Shown piece by piece: positions 88-64,000 of a stretch of 64,000 bases of DNA. The translations under genes were made by a program, and so were the position numbers. The DNA is from Amoebophrya sp. A120. Its lineage: Eukaryota > Protista > Dinoflagellata. The notes under the pieces are model-generated. The model saw only the letters and a list, made by a program, of their open reading frames with translations, was not told the origin of the DNA and searched no databases. Numbering within the stretch: the stretch's first letter is position 1; each line of letters begins with the position of its first letter. Where the stretch lies: NCBI GenBank assembly GCA_905178155.1, contig CAJINV010000004.1, positions 6,575,409 to 6,639,408 on the forward strand, written 5' to 3'.

Positions 88-3000
88 ATGAGCACCCTTC
101 CACCTGGCCCTCCGGGGCCTCCTGGTGTCGTGGTGTCCGCTTCCCGCGGTCAGCACGCATTGGACCACGGCCTGAGTCGGCGGGACCAAAAGGAGTGCAA
201 GCGGTTCGAACAGGTATCAAATGCAAAAATGATGTCTGGGCCTGGGAGATTCCGAGATTTGTCATGCAGTTTTTCCAAGCTCCCCCACGTCTGGAATGCA
301 GGGCCAGCATCACAGGTTCTGCAGCTCCTTGGTGATGCATATTCTGCATGAGAAATGCCCTCTCAGCATGGCCAGAAGTGGGCACCTTTTGCACTTTATG
401 CATCACAGATCTTTGTAGGATCTGAAACACGCATCACAAGTTTGTCTTCTTCCAGACCCAGACATATTTGCAGTTCATAACAGGAACTGTACGGAAAATT
501 GCAGCAGTTCGAGCTCGCGAAAGAATGGGCGGACCTGTCGAACGTGCTTATGGCGTTGCACCGCGTATTTTCCACGAACGACTCCAGTTCGCAGTACTCA
601 GAGGCGTTTTACCAGCGGTAAGTAAGTAGCACCTCTTTCGAGAAGACGAATGTGAATCTTTGGCCGTCAAATGCGTTTTCAGTATGAGGAAGATAGTGTG
701 TGATGCAAAAATGGTAGAAGTAGAAGATCAAAAATCAATTCACTGTGCATATCAAGATTTAGATATCCCCCTCTCAACATCATCCCAGCCGCCTTGCGAA
801 GAGCCAGATGAAGCGAACTCTGGGCCGGCGGTTAGCGCAGTGTCTGAACCCCCAACTCCCCTCCGGGGTGCACCTCAGCACGCTGAAAATCTACGACTCG
901 ATCTTCAGCCAAATCGGGTCCGACGGACTGGTTTCCGACCTCGGACTGTATTCTTCCGGCCTGTTTCCCCACGTGGCGAACTGCGGAAAGCAGGTCCAGG
1001 CCGCGCTGCTGATTTTACTCGAAAAACATTATTTGCCGTTGAAGTCCCGCTTGGAGCCCTGCATGACGGGTTTGGTGTCCGCGTTGTTACCCTTGTTGGA
1101 AGACGAGGCGAATCCGAACATCGCGCGGGTGTCCAACCTGTTCGCGAAACTGGTAGACGCGGTGTCCGAATCTTCTTTCTGTTCCAACCTGTGGCTGCTG
1201 CTGCTGAAGACGCCGAAAATCCGGTTGCCTGGACTGAAATTGCTGACGAACATCGTGCAGAACTGTTTAAAGAAGAACACCAGTATTCTGGTCGGCTCAA
1301 CATCTACTGCGCCGGGAGCCGCGGGGGCTCAACATACGGGCACAGGAAGTGGAGCAGGATCAGGGGCGTATGCGGGGGGAGGAACTGTCGTGAACACCGC
1401 CACGCGGTCAAGCCGAGACAATGGTTTGCTCCTCGCAGGGAACAACTCTGCGGGCACCAGTACTTTGCTTCTGAAAAGCCCTGGAAGTGGAAGTAAGATG
1501 CGCTCCGCACCACTGCTACATGTTCGCGCAGCAGCAGGCGCAGCGTCGTCTGCAGGTGCTGCACAAATAGCAGAACTAGGAGGGGGTAATAAGGGAGGTG
1601 CCGCACCGCTCTCCCCCCTGCGACCAGCCGAGGCTTCTGTAAGAAAGGCCAACCAAGGGAGTTTGCAGCTTCTAGCTCCTCCCTCCTCCTCAGCCCTGCG
1701 CGCCGGCGCAAGTGGCAGCGCGACGCTTTTACCCGCAGCAGCGACCTCCAGTCCGCAAATACGGGGTCAGGTGCAAAAGGATACAGCCAATCGCGGAAGT
1801 AGTGGAAGCGCATCCGCGAGTCAACAACATACTCTTCTCCCTACGTACGAAAAGACCTTCCCATCTGGCGTCGACGCGCTGCCGAGAGCGAAAATCGATG
1901 CGCTCTTCCCCTTCCACCGTTCCCAACTGGTTCTGCAAACGCTGGAAACCCTGCTGCAGGACTCCCAGCAGCCGCTCGTGCAGCGGGCTGCGTTAGACTT
2001 TATTGCGCAGTTTCTCCCAATGTCTTCCACCGTGTGGCCCCCGGCGACGGGAGGGTCCAGCGGTAGTTCGAGCTCAACATCACACACGACTACAGGTTCA
2101 ACATCTACTACGACGAGTTCGAAAGCGAAACAAGCGGTCCTTCGGACGGTTGTGGCGCTGTTCCAGCAGAACGACGGGAGTTTGAACCGGAGAATTGTCT
2201 TTTACCTGACCAACCGCTACGGTGATTTCGGCGGGATGGACCCCGCCAGCCGAGCGTACTACGATGTGCACGTCCATAAATGTTTAATTCGCGTTTTTAT
2301 GACCGATCTTCTGGTTGCCTGCGGCTGGCCGGGGTCCTCGGTCAACGCCGTGGTGGAGCGGGTTTTGTTGGTGGCTGCGAAGAGGCAAAGGGCTAGTGAA
2401 GATGGAGCTGGTAATGCCTCATCCGGTGCTGGGTCGTCTGCCTCTACCACTTCGCTAGGCCCAGCAGCACAACTCCTGGTGTCCTCTCCATTGGGGGCCC
2501 ACAGCACCCGTACCGGACTGATTTCGCCGTTGCTGGCGACCAAGGGCAGAGTTGACTCGTCTTTAGCGACACCGGCTCGACCACTGCAGCAGAGTCCACC
2601 GGTGGTCGGATTGTCTACCGCACCGGAGGTTCTGCTTTCCCCAGCTTTGTGCGCCGCTGCGAGCAGCAGTACTAGCCGTATTCCAGGCGAGAAGGGTCCA
2701 CAGGCTTTCAACCTCCTCGATGAATTGCACCGGTATCGGGAGCAGGAGGGTCTAGCAGGTGCGTGTTCCACGACGAGCCAAGGTACTAGTACAACCACTT
2801 CTGCAATTGCAACAAGCACGATTAGAAGAGCGCAGCAGGAGCAGCATGATTTGTTCAACCACCACAGCACGACCCAGCTGCACACTTTCTCGCAGCATGC
2901 GAACTGCCTCCGCTCCATTACTTGTTTACTGCAGGAAGTCGAGGAGATCCGCGGCACCGTCGTGCCCGAGCTGAGCATTTTTGTCTTACTATACCTTGAC

Positions 3001-6000
3001 GCGTGCCGAAATTCAACAGTCCGCGACCAAGCCAAGGATTTTTTCGACGGGGCAGACCGGGATTTGGTCCTAGAACAGCTGAAGGAGCTGTGGCAAACCT
3101 CGACGAACCCGGTGTACGCACTGCAGCTCCATCGGGTGTTTCTGGAAGAAGTGTGCGAAGAGGTGGACTTCGGGCGGCATCTGGAGCGGATATTGACCCT
3201 GGCGTTTGCGTCGCTACCACTAATCGCCCCGACGGTAGAGAAGTTGCCGGACTTGTGCGAGGCCCTGAAATTCTGCCAAAATTTGTTTCAACAATTCGAC
3301 AAAATACAGGTCGAAAGTAGACGTCGTGGCAAGAAGATGAACAACCGAGGGAACAATGGGTCAGCTGGGAGAATACAGGAGGAAAACTTTGTTGTCACGG
3401 GTGAAGCTGCGCAAGAAGTTGTAGAGGCGTCAACAGAACGAGAACCAGCGTTTTCCAACTCCGCCACCTCGCCCACAACTACTTCCGAGACCACGACCCA
3501 GACCTTACAGCACGCGGTCAGCCGCCTCCTCGCGCACTTCGAGTTTCTCTTGCGGTCCATGCTGCGGAGCGAGAGCGTCGAGGAGCGGGTGTTGCAGGCC
3601 TACGCGGTTTTGTCTGAAACCGTGGTACAGCTTCACGATCACTTTCCGGCGAGACAGTCGCTGTTGGAAATCATCTGCATTGCCTGCACGGAACAGGGAA
3701 TCAGGAATGATTTAGGCAAGATGTCGAACTACAACTCAAAGAGCCCCCCAACTACAAGAGGAAGTGTGGTAAAGTGGGATAAAGAGGTCTTTTCAGCATC
3801 AGGAACAAGCAAAATAAACACCTCTCAACATCTGCTTGTTCCACCACCCATCGCTTTCAACCGTTCGGAGTTCAATTGCCATCTAGTTCGGACCTTCACG
3901 GGCTTGCTCTCTTGCTTGCCAACGTCCTACACGCTCGGAGCCAGTATTCCAAAAATCGTTTTACACCTGTGGCGGCTGTTGAACACGAGTAGCATTGATT
4001 TGGACGTAACGATCGTGGAACTCTTGATCAACCTGAATAGGGAAGTCATGACGCGGAAGAACTTGACCGAGGAAATCTCCATTGCCGATATCCTGGTTGC
4101 CGATTTCCAAAGTGGGAACCCCATGACCGGCGTGATCCGCTACGCGAGTCTGTGGCGCAGCGGCGTCACGCTGTTGGCCGCACTACACCAGCACGGGACG
4201 AACAATTTTTATCCTACTACAACGGCAGGGCATCTTCAAGGGTCTTCTACTTCTTGCGGAATGTTTGCCCGCACGCTGGATGGGGAAGAGGACGGCTCTA
4301 CTGTCGACATTATAAATCAGCGCATCCACATTCTCGAGTCGTTGGTCGCCGTGGACCAGTTTTCGCAGACGTTTCTCGCAGAAAAGAGGGTTACGAAAGA
4401 CCACGCGGCTTACGAAATGCCACTGGAGATGTTCAACGATGGTTGTTTGAAAAGTATTATGTCGCACGACCGGGTTCAGTTCGTCCCGAGATATGCGAAT
4501 TTTCTTTTCCCGAATGTCACGAAGTTAGTCCTGGGGTGTTTGGACGCCAAGGAGCCGAATTTAAAGCACATCGCGAGGAGCTGGGCCGTGGAGGCGGTTT
4601 CGCACCTTCCCTGTTTGCTGGATCCGTTATTTGAGGACCTTTTGGCCTTTCTCCTTTTGATGGTAACGAAAAATAAGACTGCCTCAAGGTCAACAACACC
4701 TGACACGGCGGAAAGAAGTAGCGACTCTCTGCTTGCACCGGTTGAACTAGCGCCGGACAACGTCGACAGCCAGAATACTCACGAGAATTATTCCCAGCAG
4801 CCTCCCGAATCCGTGCGAAAGCGCGTCGCGTCGCCGAAGCATGTCCTGCTGCGACGGTTCTTTTCCTCCCGCGCGGGGGAGCTGCTCGCCGACGCGACGG
4901 CGAAACAAGCGCCCGGAACGGCGAGGAACGGTGAACAACCCGAAAGAACCTCCGGGACGACGAATACGAGTGAAGCAGAAACATCAGAAGTTGTCCCGAT
5001 GCTGCACCAGCAAACGGGTGATCTTCAATTTCATTCCTCTTCCGAAATGGACCCCCAAGCTGCAGCGGCGAAAATGGGTGCTACAGGCAGCAGGACAACT
5101 GTCCTATCGCCAAGAAGAATGGAGAAAACCGTGGTCGATGGTGTGGCGAAAATGCTGCAGCGGTGCCTTACCATCTTCGAAATATTCACCTCCCTGGTCC
5201 AGGCCGATTACCACTTGATGTTCGACCAGATGCGCCGGCACAGGGTGAGCAAGCACCTCACGGAAGCGTTGCAGGACTACTACTGCCACATCCACTGGTT
5301 GCAGCTGAGCGTCAGCTCGAAAGCCAGCGAAGTTGGAAATTTTTGCCCCCGGGATGCGAGTCACGTGAAGGATTACGCTGATTTCATGTGCCACACGTGT
5401 CTCTGCTTCCTGGAACTCCCGACCAACGGCCCGGAGACGAGGCATCAGCTGGACGACTGGCAGAGCGAATTGGGAAAGAACGTTTTTCTCGCAGCGGCAG
5501 GGATGCTGGGAAAGGAAAGTGTTGGAACAAATGCGGCTGGTGCAGCGGCTGGTGGTAGAACTAGAAGTAGTGCGGATTATAATTTCGTTAGACCTCCAAA
5601 GTCGTCGGAAAAAAGGACGAGCGCTGGCGGAAACGTCTTTGACAGTGCGGCCACAACGACAGCTGAAGAGGAGGTCCAAGACGTGCTAGTAGAAACATCA
5701 CACTTGATAATTCCCGAAACACCAGCTACCGCAGACGGGACCAACAGCAGCTCGACTACAGGCCTGGGAAGAACGTCCACAGAATCGACATTCTCGGGCT
5801 CGACGGAACTTGTTTCTAGCTCAGTGTCGACCATTTCGGCCGGTAGTAAGACTAGTCAGCGGAGCTCCGATAGTCGTGGGGGCTCGAATAAATCCGTGAT
5901 ATGTAGTAATAGCGCCGATCTTCAGGAACAGGACCAAAGGAATTGCTCCGCCCGTATGACGGAGCTGCCAGTTGTCGCAGAGGGGTGTGTCAGCGGTGAG

Positions 6001-9000
6001 GGTCCGTGCGAAGATGAAAAAGGATGTGCTGAAGATACAGCTGCAAGCGAAAAAGGAGCGGTAGGTGGTAAGGCAGACAGTGGAGAAAATCAGGCGCCGA
6101 AGCCGCACGAACATGACGCAGCAGCAGAGACGCAGCCATCGGGGGGGGAAACCGCGCTTGCCTCGGAGCCGTATCAGTCCCCTTTAGCGACACTGCAACC
6201 TAGTCTTGAATCCAAACCCGCACTACATCCCCTCCCAACCGGGCGCAGTACGCAGGTTGTGCTTCCTTCTGAGCAAAAGTTCTTGCGGCTCAAAGTCAAG
6301 CGGCAAGCCGACATTTCCCCGACCGATCAAGATGCAACCACGAGAACAAGTACCAGCAATAAAGTTTTGAATCTTAGTCCCGATCTCTACTTCTCCAGTC
6401 GTATCGAGGGACTTGTGAATGCCATTCGGGCGAGTAGCGGCGAGTTTCTCAAGTCCTTTCTCGGTCCGATCAGCAACCCGGAGAAGGGACATATCACGAG
6501 AAAAAAGTGTTACAGTTACACATTTGTTGGAGTTTCTGCATCACAAATTTTTTCTGTGTGGCAGAGAAAACTTGTAATGCGAAGATCATAAGGGAAAACA
6601 GGAAGGAAACGAGGCTCCCAAGCATTTCCTGCATGAGAAAGGTTGTCTCTGTTGCCGGTCTTGCAACGCAATGTGTAAGCGTAACACTTTTTTCTTGCGA
6701 TAGGACGGGAGATCTGTGCCTGCCTGATTGACCCGCTTTTGCAGATCTATCCTGTGCAAAAGTATCGTACTCGTATAAATGCAATTCTTGCATCACAGGT
6801 CTTTTACTTAAGGTAAATCCGCATTACTTCTCATGCTGAGGAAATTTGTAATGCATTTATACGAGTACGATACTTTTGCAGTTCATAAGATCTTGGACGC
6901 GACGATTCGGGCGCGGGACTACACCATCCAGGTGCATCTGATCGGTATTCTCCGCGTCATGCTGGTGCTGTCCAACCAATTCGCCTCCGGGGGGCAAGAG
7001 ATGGCGGGTAAAAGTTGTACTAGCAGCTTTGCCGGAACTACGAATCAACAAACTAGTGAGATGGCAACTTCTCACGTGATGCGGAAGGTCATTGGCAACA
7101 GCAGCGGTGCTAGTACTACCTCTCCGACCTCGCAACGCGACATGATGCTGGAAAGGACTCCACAAATAACCCCCGCGGTTGGACGACAAGGAGAGCCGCA
7201 GGATCATTTTGGTTTGACCGTATCATCTACTTCGCCCTCCGGCTTGAGCCCCAACAGCTCGGTAGATGGTCGTGAAAACTTCACCACTAATGCCTCGCTC
7301 CTGCAAGAATCGAGGCGGAGGACGACCATGAGCCAGGGTGTTTCTGCGACAATGTCTTCGAACACATCGACTCCAACTGTGCGGGAAAAGGCGACTGTTG
7401 ATTCAACATCGTCGGCAAGGTTGTACCAAGACCGGCATAATTCGAAGAAGCAAACTACTTCACAAAGAAATTATAAGCCCAGAGCACAACGCGGACCACC
7501 AGACCACCAGCGGCAAAAGTTCTCCGGGTCCCTGGCCTGCTACCCACCGCTGCTGCCTTGTTTACTACGGGCAATCGGCCGGTTGCAGCAGCACGCAGGG
7601 ATAAAGAACACGGCTGCTACTTCTAGATCGATTTCAACTACTTCCTCCTCTAGTACCTCTAATAAACTCCTAACAAGTAATAACAATTTCGGCGACGACG
7701 CGATTTTCCAACGGTATTCGTATCAAATGCAAATATGTCTGGGTCTGGAAGAGTCCGAACTTGTGATGCTGCATTTGGATTCCAAAAAAATTTGTATTGC
7801 ATAAGCAGCAAAGGGAATGCAATTTTGGCTATGCAGAGAGGGCATTTGCCATGCGGAATAGGCATCGCGAAGCCCTGAAGAAGTCTGTAATGCTAGGGCA
7901 TGCATCACAGACATCATGGCCCAAGGAAAACGTGCATGACAAGTCTGCTCAGAATGTTCCAGACCCAGACATTTTTGCATTTCATAATTCGCAGGCCAGC
8001 ACGATAGCCCAGTTTGTTGAGTTCATGGTGTTCATCGTGCGCCAGGTTTCTGTATGCATTGCAAAAGTATCGTACTCGTATAAATGCATATACAAATTTC
8101 CTTAGCATGAGAAATAAAATTTGTGATGCGGCTTTAGCCTAAGAACAAGATTTGTAAATGCATGTTTGCAAAAATTACTACGAGTGCGATACTTTTGCAC
8201 AGGATATTCTGCCATGCCAGCGGAGTTCACGCGCGTGGTGGCTGCGGCGGTGAGTAGTTTTTGCCAGGAGATTCAGAAGGTGATTCAGCTTCGGGGGGAC
8301 ACCCAAGCCATGAACGAGCGAAAATTGGAGCAGACCGAGCTTGTCACCAGCCACTTTCTCCGAGGCATTTGCGACATCGTGCACGCCTGCTTGTCGCAGT
8401 GCGACGCGAAACAGGACGCGGATGGGAGTGGGGCGAGTGCAACCGGTTATTCAACATCTAAGGGCACGACCACTAACCGGGCGTCCAATTGGTTTTTCGG
8501 ACTGGTTTTATCGGGAAGCGGGGGGGACAATTCCGCGGAAAGTCAGACGTCGCAACAAGTCCGGACGATGCTGTTTGAAGTAATCCCGGAAATCTTGGCT
8601 GTCACCGTCGCATCGGTCGCAAGCATTTCGGGGCAGAATAGAACTGGAAATAAACAGATGAATTTTCCTCGTGCAGTGGGAGGGAGGACAACTTCTACTG
8701 GCTCCGGATACAACAATTTGAACGAGAGTTTCACATCTTCTGGAGGGGCATTTGGATTTGCAGCAACATCCTCCTCGTCTCTCGCGCTTAGCGGCACGCG
8801 GGACAACATCCGGAGGCAAATGAAGACGATGCTGAATTCGATTTTCGCCCGGTTTCCGCAGCTCTTCGTGGAGTCGGTCTTGCGTATCTGCCGCGACAAG
8901 CAGAGCATTTTACCGTCTCTCCTCGAAACACTGGCGTCCTTGGAGAAAGCCAAGCCGGAGATCGTGTTGCGGTGTGTGGCGGTCGCGTTCGAAAAGGAGC

Positions 9001-12000
9001 TGAGTTGCAGTGTGGGGAGCAACAAGAACAAAACCAGGACTGCTTCTTCGAAAGAAGTTCCCCGGGAAGTCTCATCTGCGAAGAATGATCATGCCGATTC
9101 TAGTATAGAAGCGGCATTCACGACACACAACGAGGATCCTACGACTTTAACGGGACGACCAACCACTTCCAATTTGCGAAATTACCAGCACGGCACTTCG
9201 GGCACTAGAGCAAGTACTACTCAAGATGGCTCTACTAGCTCCCGAGGACCGAACGTCGCGCAAGAGACCACTCCTGTATCAAGCTGTATCCCGCCGAACG
9301 AGGAAAACTTGCTTCTCTATTTCCTGTACAGCTACATGTCGCACTGCAGTCGCGGGCTGTCCTCGCTGGAGATCCTCTGGAAGAGCGTCGCGCGTATCGC
9401 CACCGCCGCGGTGAAGCATTCTAAGCAGCCCGTGACGATGCTATGGGTGCTGTCCTTGATCCAGCTGTGCGATGGGATTACACAGCGGAACCTCGCCGTG
9501 AACGCGAGAAGGAGTAAAACAGGCCGAAATACGACCAGTAATGGAAGTGCGTTGCAGCAACCAATCCTCTACGAGCAGCAAATTTTCGATCAGTTGGACA
9601 TCCGACGGTTCCGGAAAGACGTCACCGCGCTGGTGGTCTTTCTGATCGGATTAGTGGCCATGGAGCAGCCGACAGAACTGCTGAGTGGCAGTACTAGCAG
9701 TAGCTTGAGAAATAAAGAACATACAACTTCCGAGGCGCATCACTTGCTGCACCCGCCACTGCCCCCGCAACTCGAAATGACGCGTGAGTATGATGGTGCG
9801 CAGAAGAAGTTCTGGCACCAAAAAACATTGCAGGCAAGGTCGAGAGTGCAGACACCTGGTGTATCTTCGACTTCTGGAGCTGGGGTGGAAATAAAAGACG
9901 GAAAGGACCCACGGCAGCAGCTGAACAGCAACAATAAGATTCTAAAGACTGCTGGAGCGAGCACGAGCAGTAGCAACCTCGATATGCTGAATAAGCACAA
10001 GTCCGTTTCTTGTTTGCCCTGCGCGGGCCCCGGCGGAACCTTCGGTAGTCGAGGGAATACGAATTTTGATCGTTCCCCAGATGAAGCAGCAACGGTTCAT
10101 CCTGTCAAAACTGCATCATCATCAGGCGCTCATTTGGATCTCAGCTGGATGGTACAGCAGCTACAGCAGAAGCAGACTACTCGAGGACCGCATCAAACCC
10201 TAGTCGCATCTTCTTCCCCCTCCGCACCATCAGCACCCCCACCTCCCCTTCCCGCTCGTGATCAACTCGCGATTTGCAGTTTGCGCTTTCTCATCGTTTT
10301 CCTTTGCGACGTGAACGAATGCAGCTCGACGCAGACGAGATTCGGGACCTTGTTTCTGGACGCTTTACTGTACAGCAGCAAATACTGTAGTTTAGTGCAT
10401 TCCGTCACCCACAACGAGCTCCAATATTTGAAAATTGACAAGGGAACGACCAAGCTTTTTCAAGAAGAGTGGGTCTACCTACTGCTAACCTCGGTCGCGA
10501 ACCTGCCGTTCGATTTGTACCGGGAGAGCATTCTGAAGACGAAGTTGAACAAAACGCTCGTGTCCGCAGTGAACAGCCCGAACTTCTTCGCTTTGAACGT
10601 TTCTACCGCCCGTAGTTTGCGTTGCTGGGCCGAGATCGTGGGCGAATTGCTGTTGTATTTCCACGCGGAACAGTTGGGGTTTCCAACTGGAAGTGGGGCG
10701 GGCGGGACAAGTGGGAGCGTATCAAATGCAAGAATGTCTGGGTCTGGAAGAGTGCATGTTTGTCATGCTTGTCTGGCATGACTCTTAAATCTGTCATGCA
10801 AGTTACCCAAGAGCTCTATTCTTCTGTGATGCAGAAACGCAGTTTGATTGTCATGATGAGTAGGCAACACCTAGAAGCTCAGAAACTTGTCATGCTGAGC
10901 CAGCACCTGTGGCCTCATCATGAGACGCCACCCAGCATCACAAGTTTCCAGACCCAGACACTTTTGCATTTGATAGAGCGAGGAAGAACGCGATGAACAG
11001 TGTTACGCGAGAACAAGAACCTCTCGAGGAGCAGGCGTGGAGGAGAATTGTGGAACAATCGGGGAGTTGCAGCAAAGGGGAACAGCCATGGGATCTAAGC
11101 AAAATTCGTTTTCGTTTTCCTCCGCTTCCCGAGAGCAGCAGCAGCACCTGCAACGAATAGAAGTCTCGTCATTCAACAGAAACAACGGCAACAGCGTCGG
11201 ATTGCTGAATGGAGGTACACCAGGACGCAACATCGGCAACAGGGTTGCAAAGTCACACACGTCTCTGCTCGGCGACATAGAGGACGACTTTGAAGACATT
11301 AGAACTACTCCGGAAAATTTTCTTCTCGAAGATGAATCACCGGAACAAATTCTGTCAGCCCAACATCGGCCGCAAGAAGGACTAATGCAGCAGTTGCACA
11401 GAGTACCCGCAAGGAAAATCAAGAGCCGGCACCAGAAGCAGCGCGCGGAGGTGTTGGCGAACGACGGGCAGGTGCAGTTGTTGTTTCAGATCTGTTGGCC
11501 CTCGAAAACCTCATTGCTGCAGTCCGTCGAGCAGGACCGGGCGCAGCGGTTGCAGTTTCTCCGGCGACTCTGCTTCGTTCTGTACGCGGGGGCGGAGAAC
11601 CAATTTGCGAGTGAGCTACGGGTATCAAATGTAAAAATGTCTGGGTCTGGAAGATTTTTAGATTTGTCATGCATATTTTCCATGACCCATGATGTCTGTG
11701 ATGCATACTGTAGCATCACAGATTTTTAGAGCGCTTTGTGATACCTCTACCGCATGAGAAATGCCCTCTCCTCGTAGCACAAACTGGAGTCCTCTTGCTG
11801 GTCATTTTAGTGGTTGAGGGGTAAATAAGGTCATGCAATACAATTTTTTTCAAAATCCAGAGACAGCATTACAAGTTTAGAATGTTCCAGACCCAGACAT
11901 TTTTGCATTTGATAACGAGACATCATGGACAAACTGTCCGAGTGTCTGCAGACCGTGGCCAATAGCGACTTGCAGTTGGGCGGTGGTGGGGCTACAGGCG

Positions 12001-33538: not shown

Positions 33539-33720
33539 GGGTTTTTCTTTCTTCGCGGTAGTAGATCTCAATGAGAAACAAGTTGTAGCCTATCCTGGTG
33601 TTTATCTTCATCGTTGCTTTTTAGCAGGATCAAAGAGCCCCCTCTGCGAGATTGGCTTTTCGCATGGCAAATAATACTTTTTAATCATCGATGACAAAAC
33701 AGCACCTCTCTGGCGCCGTG

Positions 33721-38717: not shown

Positions 38718-38790
38718 GAAGAGGAGGAGGACGAAGACGATGATGATGACGACGATGATGAGGAGAAGGAGGAGGAAGAAGAGGAGGACG
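38718..38790 (+). repeat. GAN triplet microsatellite
   Basis: Runs of gga/gat/gac/gaa triplets. Confidence 0.7.
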
Positions 38791-45771: not shown

Positions 45772-47414
45772 ATGCCCTCCAGTGCTGCCGCCAGCAGCTC
45801 CGCCTCCGCCGGCGTCAAGCGGCCGCGACGGGACAGCGCGGAGGAGACCGAGGAAATTGCCAAATACGCCTGCGGATCAAATGCAAATATGTCTGGGTCT
45901 GGAAGGTAGCAACTTGTGACGCTGTCTTCGGATTCGAAAAAGATCTGTGTTGCATGACCAGCAAGAGGAGCCGATTTTTTCCTACGCGGAGGGGGGATGT
46001 GTCATGCGGAGTAGGCATCGAGAAGCCCTGCTCAAAAATTCTGTGACGCTAGGGCATGCATCACAGACATTATGGCTCATGCAAAACGTGCATGACATTG
46101 ACAAGTCTCCGAAACTTCCAGACCCAGACACTTTTGCAGTTGATACTGCGCCGTGTGCATGGAGGTGGTCACCGACTGCCACTCGTCCACCTGTTGCGGG
46201 GCTGTGTTCTGCGGGGAGTGCAAAACCGTATTGGAGCAGGAGGACCGAAATTTGTGGCCGGCGGAGGGTCGCCGACCCTGCCCGCACTGTCGAAAGAAGG
46301 CACCGTGCTACGTGAAAAACCTGGCGTTTCATATTCGCGAGCAAATATCACAGCTCCCGCAATCGGCCAAGGCAATACTTCTCATGCAAGACAATTTGAC
46401 GCGCTCGTTCTCTTCACTCTATGTTTTGAGCCTTTATTTTCTAGTAGTCGTCCACCATGGGAATAGTTCATTGCGCCCTATAGCAAATTTTCCCGGCTAG
46501 AAGTACCGCACAATTAGCCAAGAAGTCATCGTGACTAATCTGGAATTGGATGTTTTTGAAGGATCGTAGAACCGCGGAGAAATTGAAATATGTATAATTA
46601 CTCAGAAATCCAACTCCAAGTTGGGGAAGTCAAACTCAAAGTGCTGTAGTATGAATGATGTGGGGGCGTCCTTTTTTTATTCAGGATACTGAAGCGCCTC
46701 GCAAACGAAGTCGAGGTGGTGTGCCCAGAGGAGCGGTGCGGCGTCAGGTAAAGCATATATGAGAATTACTACGGTATTTTTGTTGCCGCGCAAGGAAGTA
46801 AAACTAGAACTGCGCGTTCTGTTGCGCAACTCTAGGGACCACACCCTGGTCTTGGTGAGAAAGGCAGCGTAGCGTAGCTGGAGAATTTATCTTTATCTCC
46901 CGCACAAATCTTCAACACCGCCATGCCCATCATGGTTCTTTCCATTTCGAAAAAGATAAGCATATGATAAAACAAGAACCAAAACCCTCGTTGCAGGTCG
47001 AAAGTTGGTGAGCGCCACTGCGATTGGTGTCCGTGGGCAACGACCGAGTGTTCGCTGTCTTGGATGGGCTGTAGGTGGACAGGTCCGCGGAAGAACCTGA
47101 AGCAGCACATGGAGGACTGCCACGCTCCGCGGTGCCGACAGCGACCCTGCTGCCCAGGGAAGCTGCAACAGCTTCCACAGAACGTGTGCGAGACCGTGGG
47201 CACCGGCTCTTTCTGCGACACCTGCGGCTGCGCGCCGCGGAAGGACAGCGGCCACACTTGGTACGGCTGCGACGTCGACGACTGCGACTACCTCGAGTGC
47301 TCCAGCTGTCTCATCCACCGCCCGCTGCGCACGATGCTGCTTGGCGTGGATGGGCTCGTCCGGGATAAGGGGGACCTACGGCCGCGGTTTGAAGACGGCG
47401 CGGGCGCTTTTTGA
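45772..47414 (+). CDS. RING-finger / zinc-finger protein, multi-exon
   Basis: Spliced CAVCMEVVTDCHSSTCCGAVFCGEC...CPHC; downstream GCRWTGPRKNLKQHMEDC and a Cys-rich module. Confidence 0.75.
45875..46145. mobile_element. Introner, family A, inside the first CxxC of the RING
   Basis: Left end gatcaaatgc (first base T>G); DR ctgcg/ctgcg; removal gives KYACAVCMEV. Confidence 0.92.
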
Positions 47415-52501: not shown

Positions 52502-54898
52502 ATGCCCTTCGTTTCTCCAGACTACGTGCCTGATCCGCTCTTGGTGGCTGGGAATACGCTCGTACCATCCCCCCCGCTTGGTACAAAGCCGCCAACCTCG
52601 AGAACACGAACTTCTACTGCTTGCACACGACCGCCCACGACCCAGCAGCAGCTGCACAGACAACAGAAAAACGCGCCCCACAGCGGTTTTCTGGACAGAA
52701 CTGTGTTGAGACAGCGCATGCTGCGGAGTTTGGAAGCGCACAGAGCCCACCTTTCAGACCTGGAGCTCTTCTGCATCTCTGTGAGCCTAGGCTTGTGGGA
52801 GATGACGAAGATCATTTCTTTTGGAGATGAAGATGACTACGAAAAATTTTTTACCCCGAACAAGAAGAAGAAGAACATTACCAGCGGCAGTGGGGGAGTA
52901 CAAGAGCACCGGCTGGAAGACCCTGATGAGATCGCCGAGCTGTGGAACTACCGCGAACATGGGAGCAAGACCGCATGTGGACATATTTTGAACGGACGAC
53001 CTACTACTTCCGAATATGATGAAGTACACCAGGTGCAGGCGCCGGAACAAACGGAGAACAAGAGAAAAAAACGGAAAAAAATCACGAGACAAGTGGTCCT
53101 GGAGTCGATCCGCACCGGGTTGTATGAAATGTAAAAATGTCTGGGTCTGGAAGAATGCGCGATTTGTCATGCAGCTTTTCCATGACCCGTGAGGTCTGGA
53201 ATGCAGGACCTAGCATGACAGATTCTGCGTGATCTCTCTCATGCCTCTCCTGCATGAGAAACTCCCTCCCGACTTGGTCAAAACTGGACGACTTTTGGTA
53301 ATCATGCAACACAGATTTTTGCATGCTTCAGATTTAGCATGACAAGTCCCATTCTTCCAGACCCAGACATTTTTACATTTGATAGGTTGCGCAAAATCCC
53401 GATCCAGGTGGCTTGCGACGTGGTCGATATGCAGGAGGTATCAAATGTAAAAATGTCTGGGTCTGGAAGATTCTGAGACTTGTCATGCATGTTTTGCATG
53501 ACCCAGGACGTCCGTAATGCGCGACCTAGCATCACAGATTTCTAGAGGGCTTCCTGATGCCTACTCCGCATGACAAACGCCCTCCCCGCGTAGCACAAAC
53601 TAGAATCCTCTTGGTGGTCATGCAATACAGAATTTCTTAGAGTCCGAAGTTAGCATCACAAGTTCCATCCTCCCAGACCCAGACACTTTTGCATTTGAGA
53701 GGAGGGAGACTACCGTGAATACTGCCAAAACACGATCTTGTACGAGGACACACAGCTCCTGTGTATGAACAAGCCTTCGGGCAAGCGGGTGACGCCCTTC
53801 CACCGACTAGCGTCCACCGACAGCTGTCAGAACGAGATGCTGGCGTACGTGACAAGGGAGCTCTCTTGCTGGAAGAGGACGACAGGGGATGATGTGTCGA
53901 AAATCATGGAGCCGAGCTGCACAACGGGAGTTGTAGAATCGCAACACCGAGAAGAAGCTGTGCTGGGTAACAACAAGACCACGACAGTTCTACCCACCGT
54001 CCCCAGTCCGCTGCACCGGCTGGACGTGCACACATCGGGGGTCCTGCTGTTTGCGAAGCACGGCGAAGCGGCCAAGCAATTTGGGAACCAGGAGTTTTGG
54101 GCCGGACGCACGAGAAAGCGGTACTTGGCGATTGTCAGAATTGTGTCTGAGGAGCTGCTGCTGGTGGAGAAAAAGGAAAAGCACTTCTTCGTGAAGATTT
54201 CCGAGCCCCTGGATGGGAAGGCAGCGGTAACGGGAGTGGAGGTGCTGGACCAAGTAGTTTTTCCTCGTCGGACAGGAAACAATAGAGAACATGACCAAGA
54301 GAATGACAACAAGAACGACGCAATACAAGAGGAACCAGGCTCTTTCTACAACTACGCCCTGGTGTGCTGCGAGCTACTCCAAGGCGGGCGCACGCACCAA
54401 ATCCGCAGACACTGCGCGCGGCTGGGTATGCCTTTACTGCATGATCGCGAGTACCAAGCGGGCTCGACGGAGAAAGTTGGTTGTTCCACCGGCGTCCAGG
54501 ATCATGTCGTCGCCGGGTTGAGGACTAGCGAGACCCCCTTGGAACAGCAGGATCAAAAACAAGAAGTAGCAGCTCATTCTGGAAGTAGCAATGTGGAGAA
54601 TTATCCGGACCGCGAAGCCGAGAGCGATAGTTTTCCGAGCGTAGCTGGCCAAACTTCCAAGCAGTTTTTCTTGCACGCATGGAAACTGGATCTCGGGACG
54701 ACTAGAACTTTTCCTGCATCGGGTGACAACAGTTCCTCGGAAAATCAAAATGATCCGTTGACATCTTCACCGGGTGACCACTTGCTTGTTGACAACGAGA
54801 ACGACCCCCGATTTCCGATATCCATTGAAGCGCCCTTGCCAAGCCGGTTCCAACAAGAGTTAGAGGCGCTGGGACTCAAGAACCCCATTTCAACTTGA
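52502..54898 (+). CDS. RluA/RPUSD-family pseudouridine synthase; 2 introners; start uncertain
   Basis: ILYEDTQLLCMNKPSG, catalytic HRLDVHTSG, GRTHQIRRH, FFLHAW. Confidence 0.88.
53123..53384. mobile_element. Introner, family A, 262-bp subfamily
   Basis: DR ggttg/ggttg; very similar to 12493-12754 and 29893-30154. Confidence 0.94.
53439..53700. mobile_element. Introner, family A
   Basis: DR ggagg/ggagg; removal gives DMQEGDYREY. Confidence 0.92.
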
Positions 54899-55424: not shown

Positions 55425-58400
55425 ATGATGCGAAAAGATCGGTTTCGTTCCCGGCGGTGGAGCGCCCGCGGCGCGTGGATCATGACGGCCCGCAGCGCGT
55501 GGATCATGGCCTGTATTTGTGTCGCTTTATTTCAGCAGCACGAGCCATCTTTCCTGTGTGCTGTCAACGCTTTACTTCGCGGCCGTGATAGTGCACCGCC
55601 TCCGATAGATACCGCTCCATCGGATGACGCGGCCGTAAAAGCGTCCCTAGAGGACGACGGGCGCATAGAGCTCATACAACGCACGGGCCAGCATCGCGCC
55701 GCCAGTGGTTCTCCGCCCACATCATCATCATCATCATCTCCAGAACGATCGAACGCCACACGGCAGGAACTTTTGTCTCTAGGTGCAGCCGATAGAAATG
55801 ATGTTCCAACTATCCTGAGTAAAAACGTACCCACACCAGAGTCAAGATGAGGACTTTGCAACACAAACCTGGGAGTTTTAGGAGTCACACATGACAAGTT
55901 GCACTATGCAGTGTAGTGCAGGTTAGCAAGTGCAGCCGCATCACAGATTCATCTGCTCATCCTGTTCACAGCATCACAAATTCCAAAACACAATTGGAAA
56001 TGGCTCTCATGGGGATGCGCATTACAAGTCTTCCTGTCTTTACAAATCTGCATTACAACTCTGGTGTGGGTACGTTGTTACTCAGGATAGTTCTTGATCT
56101 GGCTGGTTTCGCGATCGACGGCAGCCGGGACGCCACCGGCGGCGATGGCCACGCGCCGTCGCCGGAAGGGAAGAAGATGCTCTGCCTGCTGCGGAAGCAC
56201 GTGGAGTTTGGGCCCCACGCGAAGTGGGTCAAAACGCCCGCCTCGCTGCGGCACTACGACGAGGGGCAGACGAAGGAGCTTGTGCCGCCGCTTACCGACA
56301 AGACGTGCGCGGTCGTGTCGAACTCCGGGGCACTGCTGAATCACGAGTACGGCGCCGAGATTGACCAGCACGACTTTGTATCGAATGCAAATATGTAGTC
56401 TGGGACTGGGTCTGGAAGAGTGGAAGATTTGTCATGCACGTTTTCCATGATCGATGAGGTCTGTAATGCATGGTCTAGCATCACAGATTTTGAGAGGGCT
56501 TCCTGATGCCGCTTCCGCATGAGAAATGCCCTCCCCGCGTAGCACAGACTGGACTCTTCTTGCAGGGCATGCAATACAGTTTTTTTTCGAATCCGAAGAC
56601 AGCATCACAAGTTACAACCTTCCAGACCCAGAGAGTTTTGCATTTGATACTTTGTCGTGCGCATGAACAGCGCGCCGACCGACGGGTGGGAAAAGCACGT
56701 GGGGGGAAAACAGGACGTGTATGTCGGCATCAAGGACGTTCTGCAGGAGATTTGCGCGGGACCGGAGGCGCTGCAACAAGCGCACTACCTGCGCAGGGGG
56801 TCCGTCGCCTGGGAGTGGGACCGCTTGCAGGCCACGCGAAAACTGCGGCTGGCGCAGCAAAAGCCGGAGGTCCTTCTGCGCCCTGATGCTGATGCTGAAA
56901 ATAACGGCGACAGCAAAGATGTTGGGGCAGATGAGCAGGAGGGGAACAAGATTCTTGCAACAAACACAACGACCTCCAAGTCCGAGGAAAAAGATGGTGC
57001 GGAGGTCGGGCAAGGGCAGCACGAGAAAATAATTCTGACCGAGCATGGTCTTCCACGACCGTCATCTTCAACCGTCGCTCCAACTGGTTCGTCCACCCCA
57101 CGTATCCTGAGTAAAAACGTACCCACACCAGAGTCAAGATGGGGATTTTGCAACACAAACCTAGGAGTTTTGTGAGTCACGCATCACAAGTTGCAGTCCG
57201 TAGTGTAGTGCAGGTTCGCAAGGCCAGCTGCATCAGAAATCCATCTGCTCATCCTGTTTACAGCATTACAAATTCCAAAAGACGATTGGAAATGGCTCTC
57301 ATGTGGATGCGCATTACAGGTCTTCCTGTCTTTGCAAATCTGCATTACAACTCTGGTGTGGGTACCTTTTTACTCAGGATACCACGACCTCCTTCGTCAC
57401 AGTTTTACACCCACGACGCCGAAGAAGACTTTTCTGATGATATCAAAATGAAAAATTTCCCCTCCCCATATTGAAAAGCTATGTTTTCGAAAATTTGTGT
57501 TGCTGATTTGAGGTCACAAATCACACGTGTCTTGCAAGACGAAAAGGGCAGAAGCTTCGGCCCCATTATGGAAGCGATTTGTCATGCTGTCGGGCTTAAA
57601 GGGGAGTCGTTTGCCATGCTGAACAACTAGACCCATACACCCCTGCCTAGCCTGGGGATCTGGCCGCAGTGCCTTCCTGCAATACAAAGCTGATTCGTGT
57701 ACACAAATCCAGCATCAGAAATTTCGTTTTGATATGGGGAGGGGGGATTTTTCGTTGCAATAGATGAGAAGGGTCACAGTACACCTACAAGCAAGGCAAG
57801 GGACGACGTGGAAGGGGGTGTTTTATTTCCTTGGTCGATTTCTTCCCCGTGGTCGTCGGCGATGGAGGTTGTGCAACAAGGAAGTAGAGCTGCGGAGGGT
57901 AAAAATGTTCCTCCATCGCGCACCTCTCCACAACCTGCGGCAACCACGACCAGCGTCCTCTCGTCCTCACATCAGGACTACAACAAGCGCGTACAGGCAG
58001 TTTTGCAGGAAACAAGCAAAGACAATTATGGGAAAACAAGTAAGGCAATTTACGTCGAAATGTTGGATCCAAAGGAAACAGAACAGCTCGTGCCCCGATG
58101 CGCCAGGAACAACATCACCCTGAAGGCCTTTGCGAATCTCGGGCATGGCGTCACCCGAAACATAGATCCCGAGCTTTCTGCGTTGCTCGCCGCCATGTAT
58201 CCAGCTGCTCCTGTACCGGAAGGAGGGACGCGAGGTGGTCGTGGGTTTACTAGTGCAACAGGTGGAGGTACTACAACTACAAATAGTACAACAGCAACAG
58301 TGGCGTTGTCTACAACTGGGACAACAACTTCGATGAATAAAACAATCAAACAGCCTGCTTCAACATCACTTTCTCCTGCTGCGGGTGGTCTGCGACTCCC

Positions 58401-60718
58401 GGGACTACCGAGCCTCGCAACCACTACGGGGTTCCGTGCGGTGGTCCTGATGGCGGCACATTGCAAGCATGTGGACTTGTACGAAATGGCGCCGAGCCGC
58501 GCCGCGGTGAACAGAAATAAATACCAGTACTTCAAGAACCGGTGTTGCGGCGCCAAGGACCTGGAGCGGATCGAGGCCGCTGTCAAGTTGTACGCCGGAG
58601 ATGATCATGATACTCGTCATATCAAAATGAAAAATCCCCCCACCCCATACTCAAACTAGAAATTTGTGATGCAGATTTGTGGTCACAAATCAGCTTTGTC
58701 ATGCTAGAAGGGAAAAGATGTGGACTGTAGTGCTGGTTGGCGTGGGAATAAACCTTTGCGTCTTCAACATAACAAAAAACAACTAAAAGTGGGAAACAGC
58801 ATGACAAATTGCCTGCAACTGAGGCCACAGCTGCGTCTCTTGGCCTTCTAGCATTACAAGTCGATTTGTGTACTCAAATACAGCATCACAGGTTTCGTTT
58901 TCGATATGGGGAGGGGGGATTTCTCCTTTTGATACGTCACGACCGGGGGGCTTCGATGGGAGATGAAGCCTCACGTCCACCAGTTCTTCAGTCAGCGATA
59001 GTACAACAACTCGTATCCTGAGTAAAAACGTACCCACACCAGAGTTGTCATGCAAACCTGCATGCCAAAAAGGTTTGTCATGCGGAGCGCCATGAGAGGC
59101 ATTGTCTAGTCGTGTTTTGGAATTTGTGATGCTACAATCAGCATGATATACTAGATCTGTGATGCTGCTGAACTACCTAAACAGGATTACACTACGAAGA
59201 CGAACTTGTCATGCCAAACGACCAAAGCTGGCTGATTTGTCTAGCAGATTTGCCATCTTGACTCTGGTGTGGGTACGTTTTTACTCAGGATAACTCGTGA
59301 GTCAACATCAAGGGAGGACCCAAGCGGAGGAAAGAACAGGCAGGAATAAAGCAGGAGAGAATTATAAAGCGCGCTTCTTCAAACGCAGCGGGCAGACCGG
59401 TATGATGACCGCCAGTGACGAAAGCTTCTTCGCAGCCGGCACTACGAAGGACAAGTTCTTGTACGAAGATGGAACGAAAGCTAAAGATGATCTAGATCTT
59501 CTTGGTCAGCGAACAACCAACACAGCAAGTGCAAGAGTACTACCGGGAAAAGAAGAAGACTTTTCCCTTCGAGAGATCGCCGCTCGTCGAGAACAAGAAG
59601 GAGCAGAAGCAGATGAAGAGGACGGTGCTGATATCAAAAGGAAAAATCCCCCCTCCCCATATCAAAAGGAAGTTTCTGATGCAGGATTTGCGTACACAAA
59701 TAAGATTTGTCTTGCTGGAGAGGAATGCAGCCCCGTACTAAGCCTAAGTAGAGAGGTTCTGGCCTAGGCGTCTAGCATGAGAAACTTCCGTGCTGTAGGC
59801 CCATCAGCATCACAAACCGCCTGCACAATGCTGCGGAGCTTGTGGAGTTGCCTTCTTGCAAGACAGACGGGATTTGAGGTCTCAAATCAGCAACGCAAAT
59901 TTCCGGAAACATACCTCTTCGATATGGGGAGGGGGTATTTTTCCTCTTAATAGCTGACACTGCCATGTCAGGTGACTCGCGGTCCACTCTTTCCGACCTC
60001 TCTCGCTCTACAGAAGCGGAGACCTACAAAATGAAGATGCAGAGGACGTCAGCAGGAAAAGAAAAGAACAACAGCGACACAGACACTGAGCACGGACGGC
60101 CGGTGCAACCCCGCGGCACGGTAGAAATCGTAGCCGGCGCAGGACAGGAGCAGGAGCACGACGATGTTGAAGCGTTTCATCTCGAACAGATGGATACGCA
60201 GGACCTGGAACAACATCAACACCGAGCGGGCCGTACCGTGACGGGGCAGCTGCAGTTGGACAGCTACAAGGAACCGGAGCCCTGGGGGACGGGGGCTTTG
60301 CAAAACGATTGGCACTCGCTTATGGCGTAGTTCTCAAACGTTACATTCATCTCAACTGTTACATGGATTTTATTTGTAATGCAAGAACAGCAACAGTGAA
60401 TGAAATGTGAAAGTGGCAAGATTGCAGCTTTCGCATTACAGATTTTCCACAGATTGTGATGCTGTTTAGCCCTTCGAAAATTTGGCATGTTAAGCACACC
60501 TTGATCAAGTGGAGGGTGATGGCAATTTTGCATGACAATTCCGTGTAACAGTTGAGAACGTAGTATCAGTTGAGAATGCCATATCGCTGTACCGCGCCGA
60601 GCACGACTTCTACCGGCGCACCGCCATCACACCGGCGGCCGAGTCCTTCGAAACGGGAAAGGTGCGACTGCCCGGGCTGGCGAGTCTGGACTGTGAGGAG
60701 GAAGAAGACGCGAATTGA
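55425..60718 (+). CDS. GT29 sialyltransferase-like protein (ST6Gal-like C-terminus); 8 introners
   Basis: N-terminal hydrophobic anchor; sialylmotif L CAVVSNSG...IDQHDFVVRMNSAP...VG; motif S TTGFRAVVLMAAHCKHVDLY; VS-like WHSLYRAEH; end GKVRLPGLASLDC. Confidence 0.85.
55811..56089. mobile_element. Introner, family E (279 bp), no recognisable DR
   Basis: TIR tatcctgagtaaaaacgtacccacaccagagt; flanks ccaac/gttct. Confidence 0.9.
56379..56649. mobile_element. Introner, family A, inside sialylmotif L
   Basis: DR ctttg/ctttg; removal gives HDFVVRMNSAP. Confidence 0.93.
57103..57381. mobile_element. Introner, family E (279 bp)
   Basis: TIR tatcctgagtaaaaa(c/g)gtacccacaccagagt; DR ccacg/ccacg. Confidence 0.93.
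57441..57762. mobile_element. Introner, family H (opposite orientation to 50495 and 59632)
   Basis: Ends tatcaaaatgaaaaatttcccctccccata / tatggggaggggggatttttcgttgcaata; DR gatga/gatga. Confidence 0.91.
58620..58934. mobile_element. Introner, family H
   Basis: Ends tatcaaaatgaaaaatcccccc / ggggggatttctccttttgata; DR cgtca/cgtca. Confidence 0.92.
59014..59292. mobile_element. Introner, family E (279 bp, opposite orientation to 55811 and 57103)
   Basis: TIR of about 32 bp, tatcctgagtaaaaacgtacccacaccagagt; DR actcg/actcg. Confidence 0.93.
59632..59952. mobile_element. Introner, family H
   Basis: DR gctga/gctga; removal gives EDGADTAMSGD. Confidence 0.92.
60321..60583. mobile_element. Introner, family I
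   Basis: Ends tatggc...ttctcaa...tctcaactgttaca / tgtaacagttgaga...ttgagaatgccata; DR tcgct/tcgct; removal gives DWHSLYRAEHDF. Confidence 0.88.
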
Positions 60719-63817: not shown

Positions 63818-64000
63818 TATGGAAGCGTCAGGTTTGAAATCGCCAAAGTTGAAATAATTTGTGATGCATAAAATGCATAGCGCGAAATACGTGTGTTGCA
63901 GAGCAGGCAAGTGAGGCCGATTGTAAGCCTGTTTGGGGTTAGAGCTCGAGCTGCTAAAGTAGCATGAGAAAATCAGTCATCTTTGCCTAAACAGCATGAC
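63818..64000. mobile_element. Introner, family F, truncated by the window end
   Basis: tatggaagcgtcaggtttgaaatcgccaaagttgaaataatttgtgatgc resembles the ends of 37031-37335. Confidence 0.75.

What the first reader, a model, noticed from the sequence alone, without database searches (positions are those of the whole stretch)
215..64000. Multi-family system of TIR/5-bp-DR elements acting as non-canonical introns
Seen: 36 elements with TAT...ATA-type TIRs. My families are A (18 copies), E (5), H (4), C (3), F (2) and B, D, G, I (1 each). Of 35 complete copies, 29 have a perfect 5-bp DR. Deleting an element plus one DR rebuilds conserved motifs such as the RING CxxC, sialylmotif L, the SGT1 SGS domain and Dopey_N. 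Conserved housekeeping genes therefore depend on precise removal. Established: introners with inverted and direct repeats and non-canonical ends were reported in Amoebophrya (Farhat et al. 2021), and to my knowledge the removal mechanism is unresolved. Inference: these are non-autonomous MITE-like transposons whose ends define the excision points, removed either from RNA or from DNA as with ciliate IESs.
Basis: partly seen in the sequence, partly recalled or inferred. Interest (0 to 1): 0.92.

Follow-up and report, generated by a model that had tools for sequence, protein, structure and literature searches.

The report
Transposon introns cut by fixed ruler
These are the already described transposon-like introns of the marine parasite Amoebophrya A120: they interrupt many genes without normal intron ends, are missing from transcript-derived sequences, and are likely cut from the RNA at a fixed distance from their own inverted ends, a rule that would make their unknown splicing mechanism testable.

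Summary
Observation confirmed: 36 elements, 35 complete, 29 of 35 with a perfect 5-bp repeat. The window is Amoebophrya sp. A120, and the elements are the introner elements of Farhat et al. 2021, so the phenomenon is known. The repeat is a target-site duplication (3 empty paralogous sites). Removal is most likely from RNA: contigs of a probable RNA run lack element plus one repeat while DNA contigs keep them, and 13 of 13 elements are absent from two database proteins. Not found in the papers searched: the cut appears fixed by the element ends, intron = last repeat base + TAT...ATA + four bases (-1/+4). Two repeat-less elements allow only this register; a third fits. Elements work in either orientation and need no G or AG. 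TAT then sits at +2..+4, as in the window's GTAT donors. Best guess: a relaxed spliceosome (about 0.5); rival: Euglena-type non-spliceosomal removal (0.3). The register rests on three junctions without read-level proof. The scan noted similar introns in two other dinoflagellates.

The parts
215..479 (.). Family A element in Dopey gene, DR ACAGG (GT-AG under the -1/+4 register)
   Evidence: junction peptide matches A25 orthologue
6492..6702 (.). Single-copy family element in Dopey, DR 4/5 (differs at position 5); untested register marker
   Evidence: 95% copy in L022
6748..6887 (.). Family C element in Dopey, perfect DR
7721..7986 (.). Family A element in Dopey, reverse orientation to 12493, perfect DR
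8053..8206 (.). Family C element in Dopey, reverse orientation to 6748, perfect DR
10720..10975 (.). Family A (subgroup) element in Dopey, perfect DR
11623..11914 (.). Family A element in Dopey, DR 4/5 (differs at position 4); untested register marker
12493..12754 (.). Family A element in Dopey, perfect DR, 93% identical to 53123
27211..27450 (.). Family A (subgroup) element in TBCC-domain gene, perfect DR
28176..28436 (.). Family A element in TBCC-domain gene, perfect DR
29032..29278 (.). Family A element inside the TBCC domain, perfect DR
29893..30154 (.). Family A element in TBCC-domain gene, perfect DR, ends ACA
30194..30343 (.). Family C element in TBCC-domain gene, perfect DR
30729..31282 (.). 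Long family A-related element, DR 4/5, with an internal inverted pair 31052-31269
35080..35348 (.). Family A element (reverse orientation, starts TAC) in ankyrin/IQ/PDZ gene, DR 3/5; database protein allows only cuts -2/+3, -1/+4, 0/+5
36352..36615 (.). Family A element (reverse orientation) in ankyrin/IQ/PDZ gene, perfect DR
36682..36964 (.). Family E element in ankyrin/IQ/PDZ gene, perfect DR
37031..37335 (.). Family F element in ankyrin/IQ/PDZ gene, DR 4/5
37427..38205 (.). Family A (subgroup) element, perfect DR, carrying a 510-nt insert flanked by a 16-nt direct repeat; absent as one unit from the database protein
45875..46145 (.). Family A element (reverse orientation, starts GAT) splitting the RING CxxC, perfect DR
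   Evidence: RNA-contig piece ends at 45869
48553..48763 (.). Single-copy family element in SGT1 gene, perfect DR
   Evidence: RNA-contig piece starts at 48764
49366..49624 (.). Family A (subgroup) element in SGT1, starts TAC, perfect DR
   Evidence: length sum 487 = 487
49712..49984 (.). Family E element inside the SGT1 CS domain, perfect DR (GT-AG under -1/+4)
50495..50820 (.). Family H element in SGT1, perfect DR
50878..51148 (.). Family A (subgroup) element in the SGT1 SGS domain, perfect DR
53123..53384 (.). Family A element in pseudouridine synthase gene, perfect DR
53439..53700 (.). Family A element in pseudouridine synthase gene, perfect DR, ends AGA (GT-AG under -1/+4)
55811..56089 (.). 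Family E element without adjacent DR in sialyltransferase-like gene; inferred intron 55810-56093 with CT..TC ends; key register marker
   Evidence: (1 of 625 cut pairs fits)
56379..56649 (.). Family A element inside sialylmotif L, perfect DR
57103..57381 (.). Family E element, perfect DR, 90% identical to 55811
57441..57762 (.). Family H element, perfect DR
58620..58934 (.). Family H element, perfect DR
59014..59292 (.). Family E element, reverse orientation to 55811, perfect DR; 98.9% copy in L010
59632..59952 (.). Family H element, reverse orientation to 57441, perfect DR
   Evidence: RNA-contig piece starts at 59953
60321..60583 (.). Single-copy family element, perfect DR; direct RNA-contig joint 60315 to 60584
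63818..64000 (.). Family F element cut by the window end

Best explanation
The elements are short non-autonomous DNA transposons with TAT...ATA inverted ends and a 5-bp target-site duplication that sit in Amoebophrya A120 coding sequence and are missing from transcript-derived sequences; they are likely removed from pre-mRNA at a fixed register (one base before TAT, four bases after ATA), probably by a U2-type spliceosome that no longer needs the first G or the last AG. Shown: ends, duplication, empty sites, absence from probable-RNA contigs and from transcript-based proteins, use in both orientations, no G or AG preference. Inferred from three junctions: the -1/+4 register, which restores the target site exactly because a fresh insertion is a 5-bp duplication. 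Inferred: the paired inverted repeats bring the two ends together, TAT acts as positions +2 to +4 of a donor, and the 3' cut is measured from ATA, whose first A (-7) would be a candidate branch point. Untested: the catalyst and the transposase.
For: Removal: in a probable RNA run, SGT1 contig arithmetic gives 487 = 487 nt only if four elements plus one repeat each are gone, and a direct joint 60315 to 60584 is seen; 8 of the 17 elements in the laid stretch have such evidence in the rows shown. 13 of 13 elements are absent from A120 proteins P0001 and P0002, whose gene models were built from BLAT transcript alignments. Register: of 625 cut pairs per element, only -1/+4 rebuilds P0001 at repeat-less element 55811; 35080 allows -2/+3, -1/+4, 0/+5; for repeat-less element L028:2628-2827 the residue predicted beforehand (note) was found in the 94% relative P0004, and only -1/+4 fits at one mismatch or fewer. 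Farhat Table S4 lists nine top A120 non-canonical motifs, all N-T at the 5' end. Donor likeness: 19 of 19 hand-picked canonical donors in the window begin GTA, 12 of 19 GTAT. Both orientations occur in same-strand genes for four families. Farhat et al. found nearly all spliceosomal proteins but no U1 snRNA.
Against: No read-level junction was seen for any element with differing repeat copies; the register rests on two annotated proteins and one homologue. Farhat Fig. 3 legend calls the splice sites variable relative to the hairpin. Nothing here tests the spliceosome. G at the first intron base is not favoured in the larger set (26 of 83) although it is in the window (18 of 29; Fisher p 0.004, unexplained), AG at the end is 11 of 83, and TAT and ATA are equally conserved at the 5' and 3' ends (194-196 of 197), so no strand-specific splice signal is visible. 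TAT is predicted to be paired in most elements, which would hide it. Canonical GTAT donors could be old introners rather than a shared signal. A codon-usage test on 19 imperfect repeats did not separate registers 4 and 5 and was biased towards 4.
Confidence: 0.5

Rival explanations
1. Same elements and same fixed register, but removal is spliceosome-independent: a structure-reading endonuclease and ligase, or another dedicated machine, recognises the paired ends, as proposed for euglenid nonconventional introns, and releases a circle or linear RNA.
For: No G+1 or AG preference and no 5'/3' asymmetry in 197 elements; orientation independence; strong hairpin (z -7.0 for 55811); U1 snRNA not detected in A25 or A120; Euglena introns use a fixed spacing from a paired motif (N3-CDG ... 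CH'G-N5-6) and are reported to form circles.
Against: The register places TAT exactly on +2..+4 of the canonical GTA(T) donor, and A25 motifs (IR start TTA, introns TT-xx) would also give T+2 A+3 (my inference). Arms of 119 family A elements pair no better than shuffled arms at most positions, and positions 4, 5 and 7 are often mismatched. At 55811 the predicted stem runs 3 bp beyond TAT/ATA yet the cut stays at -1/+4, which points to sequence rather than stem base.
Confidence: 0.3
2. RNA removal, but the cut floats within the repeat or varies by family; the -1/+4 agreement of three junctions is partly chance or a product of selection on old copies.
For: Farhat et al. describe variable splice sites and 3-5 nt repeats; automated calls in Gozashti et al. 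2025 differ among A120 families (22 of 58 rows seen); only three informative junctions here.
Against: A perfect repeat makes any fixed cut look variable to an aligner; two repeat-less elements of different families each allow -1/+4 only; all nine top A120 motifs are N-T.
Confidence: 0.13
3. Programmed excision from DNA in the transcribing life stage, like ciliate IESs, by a domesticated transposase; a symmetric staggered cut (top strand -1/+4, bottom strand -4/+1) could mimic the register on one strand.
For: The elements are transposon-like and strand-symmetric; only one probable DNA run of unknown life stage was laid, contigs drop rare variants, and 891 joints were not shown.
Against: DNA contigs at single-copy depth (22-30) run from exon into 11 element ends, 4 of them by 31 letters or more, with no excised form in the rows shown. 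Repeat-less elements would give non-matching overhangs yet are removed cleanly. Farhat et al. found no transposase in A120.
Confidence: 0.07

Closest known systems
Introner elements (IEs) of Amoebophrya sp. A120 (Farhat et al. 2021, PMC7789003)
   Same: Same strain; IR starting TAT + 7 nt + AAA (28 of 35 here); 5-bp repeats in their Fig. S19 legend; about 240 nt; 17% of the genome against 15.8% of this window; RNA-supported non-canonical introns.
   Different: Nothing in kind. The paper leaves the border position unknown; here the repeat is uniformly 5 bp, empty sites are shown, both orientations are used, and a fixed -1/+4 register is proposed.
A120 TIR-DNA introner families in Gozashti et al. 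2025 (PMC12130899, supplementary file 8)
   Same: TIR DNA elements of about 150-350 bp, superfamily 'Unknown', mostly non-canonical annotated ends.
   Different: Their automated TSD lengths (2-5) and splice-site origins vary by family in the 22 of 58 rows seen; no common register is stated there.
Euglenid nonconventional introns (Nomura et al. 2025, PMC12501133; review PMC11282704) and diplonemid noncanonical introns (PMC12621601, abstract only)
   Same: Non-GT-AG, base-paired ends, cut at a fixed spacing from a paired motif, MITE origin proposed, machinery unknown.
   Different: Euglena signature is N3-CDG ... CH'G-N5-6 followed by an exon purine; here N1-TAT ... ATA-N4. Unrelated lineage, so a convergent solution. 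Circles are reported for Euglena and untested here.
IS3EU/GingerRoot and hAT5 DNA transposons (PMC10045372, PMC12730594)
   Same: IS3EU has TA..TA (TAY) termini; hAT5 makes 5-bp duplications.
   Different: IS3EU duplications are usually 6 bp (0 of 35 and 0 of 221 here). No transposase was available to test either; Gozashti et al. report integrase-like homology in one A120 family.
Ciliate internal eliminated sequences (recalled, not read)
   Same: Transposon-derived interruptions of coding sequence that must be removed precisely.
   Different: IESs are removed from DNA; here the DNA contigs keep the elements and the probable-RNA contigs lack them.

Membership tests
Amoebophrya A120 introner elements | Host is Amoebophrya sp. 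A120 | tested here: met
   P0001 and P0002, 99-100% identical, named A120
Amoebophrya A120 introner elements | Terminal IR beginning TAT, seven variable bases, then AAA | tested here: met
   28 of 35 left ends, read; definition
Amoebophrya A120 introner elements | 3-5 nt direct repeat at the exon/intron borders | tested here: met
   29 of 35 perfect 5-bp; 170 of 221 in related loci
Amoebophrya A120 introner elements | Repeated families | tested here: met
   5 multi-copy groups in the window; 36 of 36 elements have relatives of 73-99% identity in L001-L153
Amoebophrya A120 introner elements | Absent from mature transcripts | tested here: met
   8 of 17 laid elements in probable-RNA contigs; 13 of 13 in database proteins
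Non-autonomous TIR DNA transposon (MITE) | Repeat is a target-site duplication: empty site holds one copy | tested here: met
   3 of 213 junction queries found an empty paralogous site, all in L007/L009
Non-autonomous TIR DNA transposon (MITE) | Autonomous partner with the same ends and a transposase | not testable with these tools
   No whole genome held; Farhat et al. report none in A120
IS3EU/GingerRoot | TA..TA termini | tested here: met
   definition
IS3EU/GingerRoot | 6-bp target-site duplication | tested here: not met
   0 of 35, 0 of 221; not filed as IS3EU
hAT5 | 5-bp target-site duplication | tested here: met
   definition
hAT5 | hAT-type transposase | not testable with these tools
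   No autonomous copy in hand; not filed as hAT5
U2 spliceosomal intron | GT...AG ends | tested here: not met
   Under -1/+4, 3 of 29 in the window and 5 of 83 in loci are GT-AG
U2 spliceosomal intron | Lariat with branch adenosine | not testable with these tools
   No data on excised RNA
Euglenid nonconventional intron | Paired ends bring the splice sites together | tested here: met
   Predicted terminal stems in 33 folded elements; z -7.0 for one; prediction only
Euglenid nonconventional intron | N3-CDG ... CH'G-N5-6 signature | tested here: not met
   Ends are N1-TAT ... ATA-N4 (definition); works like, not a member
Euglenid nonconventional intron | Released as circular RNA | not testable with these tools
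   Go-back joints were not visible among the rows shown
Ciliate IES | Removed from DNA | tested here: inconclusive
   One probable DNA run keeps 11 element ends joined to exons, 4 by 31 letters or more; other life stages not examined

The most novel reading that the evidence does not exclude
Probability: 0.45. Interest if true: 0.8.

Novelty: already known. Interest (0 to 1): 0.45.

Why it matters
About two thirds of RNA-supported A120 introns are non-canonical and their removal is unexplained. A fixed register says where the chemistry happens, so lariat, circle and cross-linking experiments can be aimed at single bases, and gene models can be corrected by rule. It also explains how transposons could fill coding sequence at little cost: a 5-bp duplication plus a 1+4 cut restores the target exactly, in either orientation and any phase. 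If the spliceosome does it, it is one that has dropped both terminal dinucleotides; if not, it is a second nuclear splicing machine.

Tried and rejected
No whole genome was held, so no transposase or snRNA search; no RNA holder listed; run X3 is RNA by guess, supported only by its skipping of GT-AG introns and zero depth in two bins where X1 had 27-33. Raw-read RNA runs X9 and X10 matched only element families, not exons (another strain), so they gave no junctions. In one search repeat-derived joints of X1 filled the table (891 rows hidden). No RNA evidence was obtained for the Dopey junctions 6492 and 11623, and the A120 Dopey protein was not among the 150 listed of 802 hits, so those two register markers stay open. 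Idea that G before TAT is needed (GT donor): rejected, 26 of 83 in loci. Idea of a palindromic C-N3-G target preference: not supported in symmetrised data. Idea of 5'/3' asymmetric conservation of TAT versus ATA: not seen. Idea of a TTGAT branch consensus: many right ends read TTCATA, GGATA or TGCATA. Codon-usage register test inconclusive and biased, because strand and frame had been called under register 4. Arm co-variation only at TIR positions 10 and 14, probably subfamily structure. A second L028 element (1892 to 2551 or 2553) has uncertain ends and was not counted. No family A pattern in viral contigs; no Rfam match. IS3EU membership rejected on duplication length. Six paper searches found no statement of a fixed register; Roy et al. 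2023 was seen only as a reference and a preprint listing; Farhat Fig. 3 and Figs S19-S25 are images I could not see and may show the register.

Full report
Observation. A TIR scan and end refinement found 35 complete elements and one cut by the window end. They cover 10,107 of 64,000 bases. 29 of 35 carry a perfect 5-bp direct repeat immediately outside TAT...ATA-type ends, none at widths 3, 4, 6 or 7, against 4 of 1190 for mismatched pairings. Nine family representatives share short internal motifs such as GCATGA (8 of 9, about 17-fold enriched), which suggests one transposase lineage (inference). All host genes are on the + strand: Dopey, a TBCC-domain gene, an ankyrin/IQ/PDZ gene, a RING gene, SGT1, a pseudouridine synthase and a sialyltransferase-like gene.

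Identity. Two exon queries returned Amoebophrya sp. A120 proteins at 99-100% identity. Farhat et al. 2021 (PMC7789003; I read sections 11 and 16, passages, and part 3 of 5 plus legends of the supplement) describe A120 introner elements whose inverted repeats start TAT, seven variable bases, AAA, with 3-5 nt direct repeats, making up 17% of the genome. 28 of 35 left ends here fit that motif. The finding is this published class.

Transposon origin. These gave 221 unique complete elements, 170 with a perfect 5-bp repeat and 200 with TAT...ATA ends (the caller recovered 31 of 35 window elements with no extras). All 36 window elements have relatives there, one at 98.9%. Of 213 junction queries, 3 found an empty paralogous site with a single repeat copy, all between L007 and L009; the other listed hits were self-matches or low-complexity. 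The repeat is therefore a target-site duplication. The superfamily stays open: TA..TA ends recall IS3EU, which usually makes 6-bp duplications (PMC10045372, passages); 5 bp fits hAT5 (PMC12730594, passages); Gozashti et al. 2025 class the A120 families of this size as TIR DNA, superfamily unknown (PMC12130899, passages and 22 of 58 A120 rows of file 8).

RNA or DNA. Four runs were laid on 44600-64000. Run X3, RNA by guess, skips GT-AG introns and has no depth in two bins where X1 has 27-33. Its SGT1 contig has displayed pieces 48764-49360 and 51356-51658; the 487 nt between them equal the exon sum only if four elements and one repeat each are gone. Another contig joins 60315 to 60584 directly, and piece ends abut three more elements: 8 of 17 elements in the rows shown. 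Run X1, which behaves as DNA, has contigs at depth 22-30 running from exon into 11 element ends, 4 of them by 31 letters or more, and no excised form among the displayed rows; 891 joints were hidden and contigs drop rare variants. All 13 elements in the genes of P0001 and P0002 are absent from those proteins, each with a loss of element + 5; the models came from BLAT-aligned transcripts. RNA removal is much the likelier; stage-specific DNA excision is not excluded.

Where the cut falls. A perfect repeat hides the cut, which is why the paper calls the border unknown (Fig. 3 legend). Elements with differing copies reveal it. I listed the alternatives before fetching the proteins (notes). For 55811-56089, with no adjacent repeat, 1 of 625 cut pairs rebuilds P0001: one base before TAT, four after ATA, an intron with CT..TC ends. 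A degenerate repeat lies 3 nt further out and was not used, and the predicted stem runs 3 bp past TAT/ATA, so the TAT/ATA ends set the cut. For 35080 three neighbouring registers fit, including -1/+4. For repeat-less L028:2628-2827 the residue was predicted and then found in P0004, a 94% relative that seems to lack the insertion; only -1/+4 fits at one mismatch, four registers at two. This is conservation, not transcript evidence. -1/+4 is the only cut compatible with all 13 database junctions. Farhat Table S4 agrees: its nine top A120 non-canonical motifs all begin N-T, and their text mentions four repeat bases upstream of the 5' end. Against: three informative junctions only, no raw reads, the Dopey markers 6492 and 11623 untested, and an inconclusive codon test.

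What is read. Families A, C, E and H occur in both orientations in same-strand genes, so the signal must lie in the symmetric ends. With host strand called by a Markov model (right for 14 of 15 held-out window elements at margin 3 or more, 24 of 27 overall), 83 perfect-repeat elements show no preference for G at the first intron base (26 of 83) or AG at the end (11 of 83), and TAT and ATA are equally conserved at both ends. The window's G excess (18 of 29) was not reproduced and is unexplained. Under -1/+4, TAT occupies +2 to +4; 19 of 19 hand-picked canonical donors in the window begin GTA and 12 of 19 GTAT. A25 elements start TTA and its top motifs are TT-xx, which would again give T+2 A+3 (my inference).

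Mechanism. Best reading (0.5): the paired TIRs juxtapose the ends and a U2-type spliceosome, which in this strain lacks a detectable U1 snRNA but keeps nearly all proteins, reads T+2 A+3, tolerates any +1 base and cuts four bases after ATA. Because 1 + 4 = 5, a fresh insertion is erased in any phase and orientation. Rival (0.3): a separate structure-reading machine, as proposed for Euglena, whose introns follow N3-CDG ... CH'G-N5-6 and are reported to form circles (PMC12501133, abstract and discussion; PMC11282704, passages). Floating cuts (0.13) and DNA excision (0.07) remain. The catalyst was not tested.

Novelty. The class, strain, TAT motif and 5-bp repeat are published. Other Amoebophrya strains use GT-AG (PMC12005148, passages); a review adds nothing on mechanism (PMC11453091, passages; PMC12787238, passages). 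Six searches found no statement of a fixed register, but the key figures of Farhat et al. are images I could not see. Two earlier scan notes report similar introns in other dinoflagellates (not checked). Verdict: already known, with one testable addition; interest 0.45.

Noticed in passing
window 37460-38001: A 510-nt insert inside element 37427-38205 is flanked by a perfect 16-nt direct repeat (37460-37475, 37986-38001): probably a second mobile element with a long duplication; the whole 779 nt is absent from the database protein.
   Followed up: partly
window 31052-31269: An inner TAT...ATA inverted pair shares its right side with element 30729-31282, which may be a nested or compound copy.
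   Followed up: no
window 46323-46684: The length of the RING-gene RNA contig (237 nt between displayed pieces) fits an intron with GG..AG (or GC..GG) ends and no obvious TIR: a second kind of non-canonical intron; inferred from length only.
   Followed up: partly
window 63845-63876: RNA run X9, which matches no exon here, has about 516 reads on this family F end with similar continuation: the family is shared with another strain and one copy is abundant in its RNA.
   Followed up: no
18 canonical introns, window 618-51356: They hold the element motif GCAT[CGT]A at 5.5 per kb against 1.3-1.4 in exons and spacers and 16.9 in elements: some GTAT...AG introns may be decayed introners.
   Followed up: partly
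window 14319-15886, 21202-23066, 45772-47416: Three RING-finger genes; the first two look paralogous with canonical introns at matching places; the second has an internal duplication near 22255-22560 and an in-frame stop at about 22561.
   Followed up: no
L001-L153 (JACKZZ01 contigs): An A120-like organism with the same families up to 98.9% identical and at least one further family not seen in the window; the one gene tested returned no A120-named protein among 9 candidates, so it may be another strain.
   Followed up: partly
window 61031-62238: DNA run X1 shows a second contig with many differences over this stretch, which has no clear + strand gene: a diverged repeat or paralogue.
   Followed up: no
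107 strand-called elements in L001-L153: The duplication starts at the third codon position in 53 of 107 cases against 26 and 28 for the other two; may reflect target choice or a frame-calling bias.
   Followed up: no
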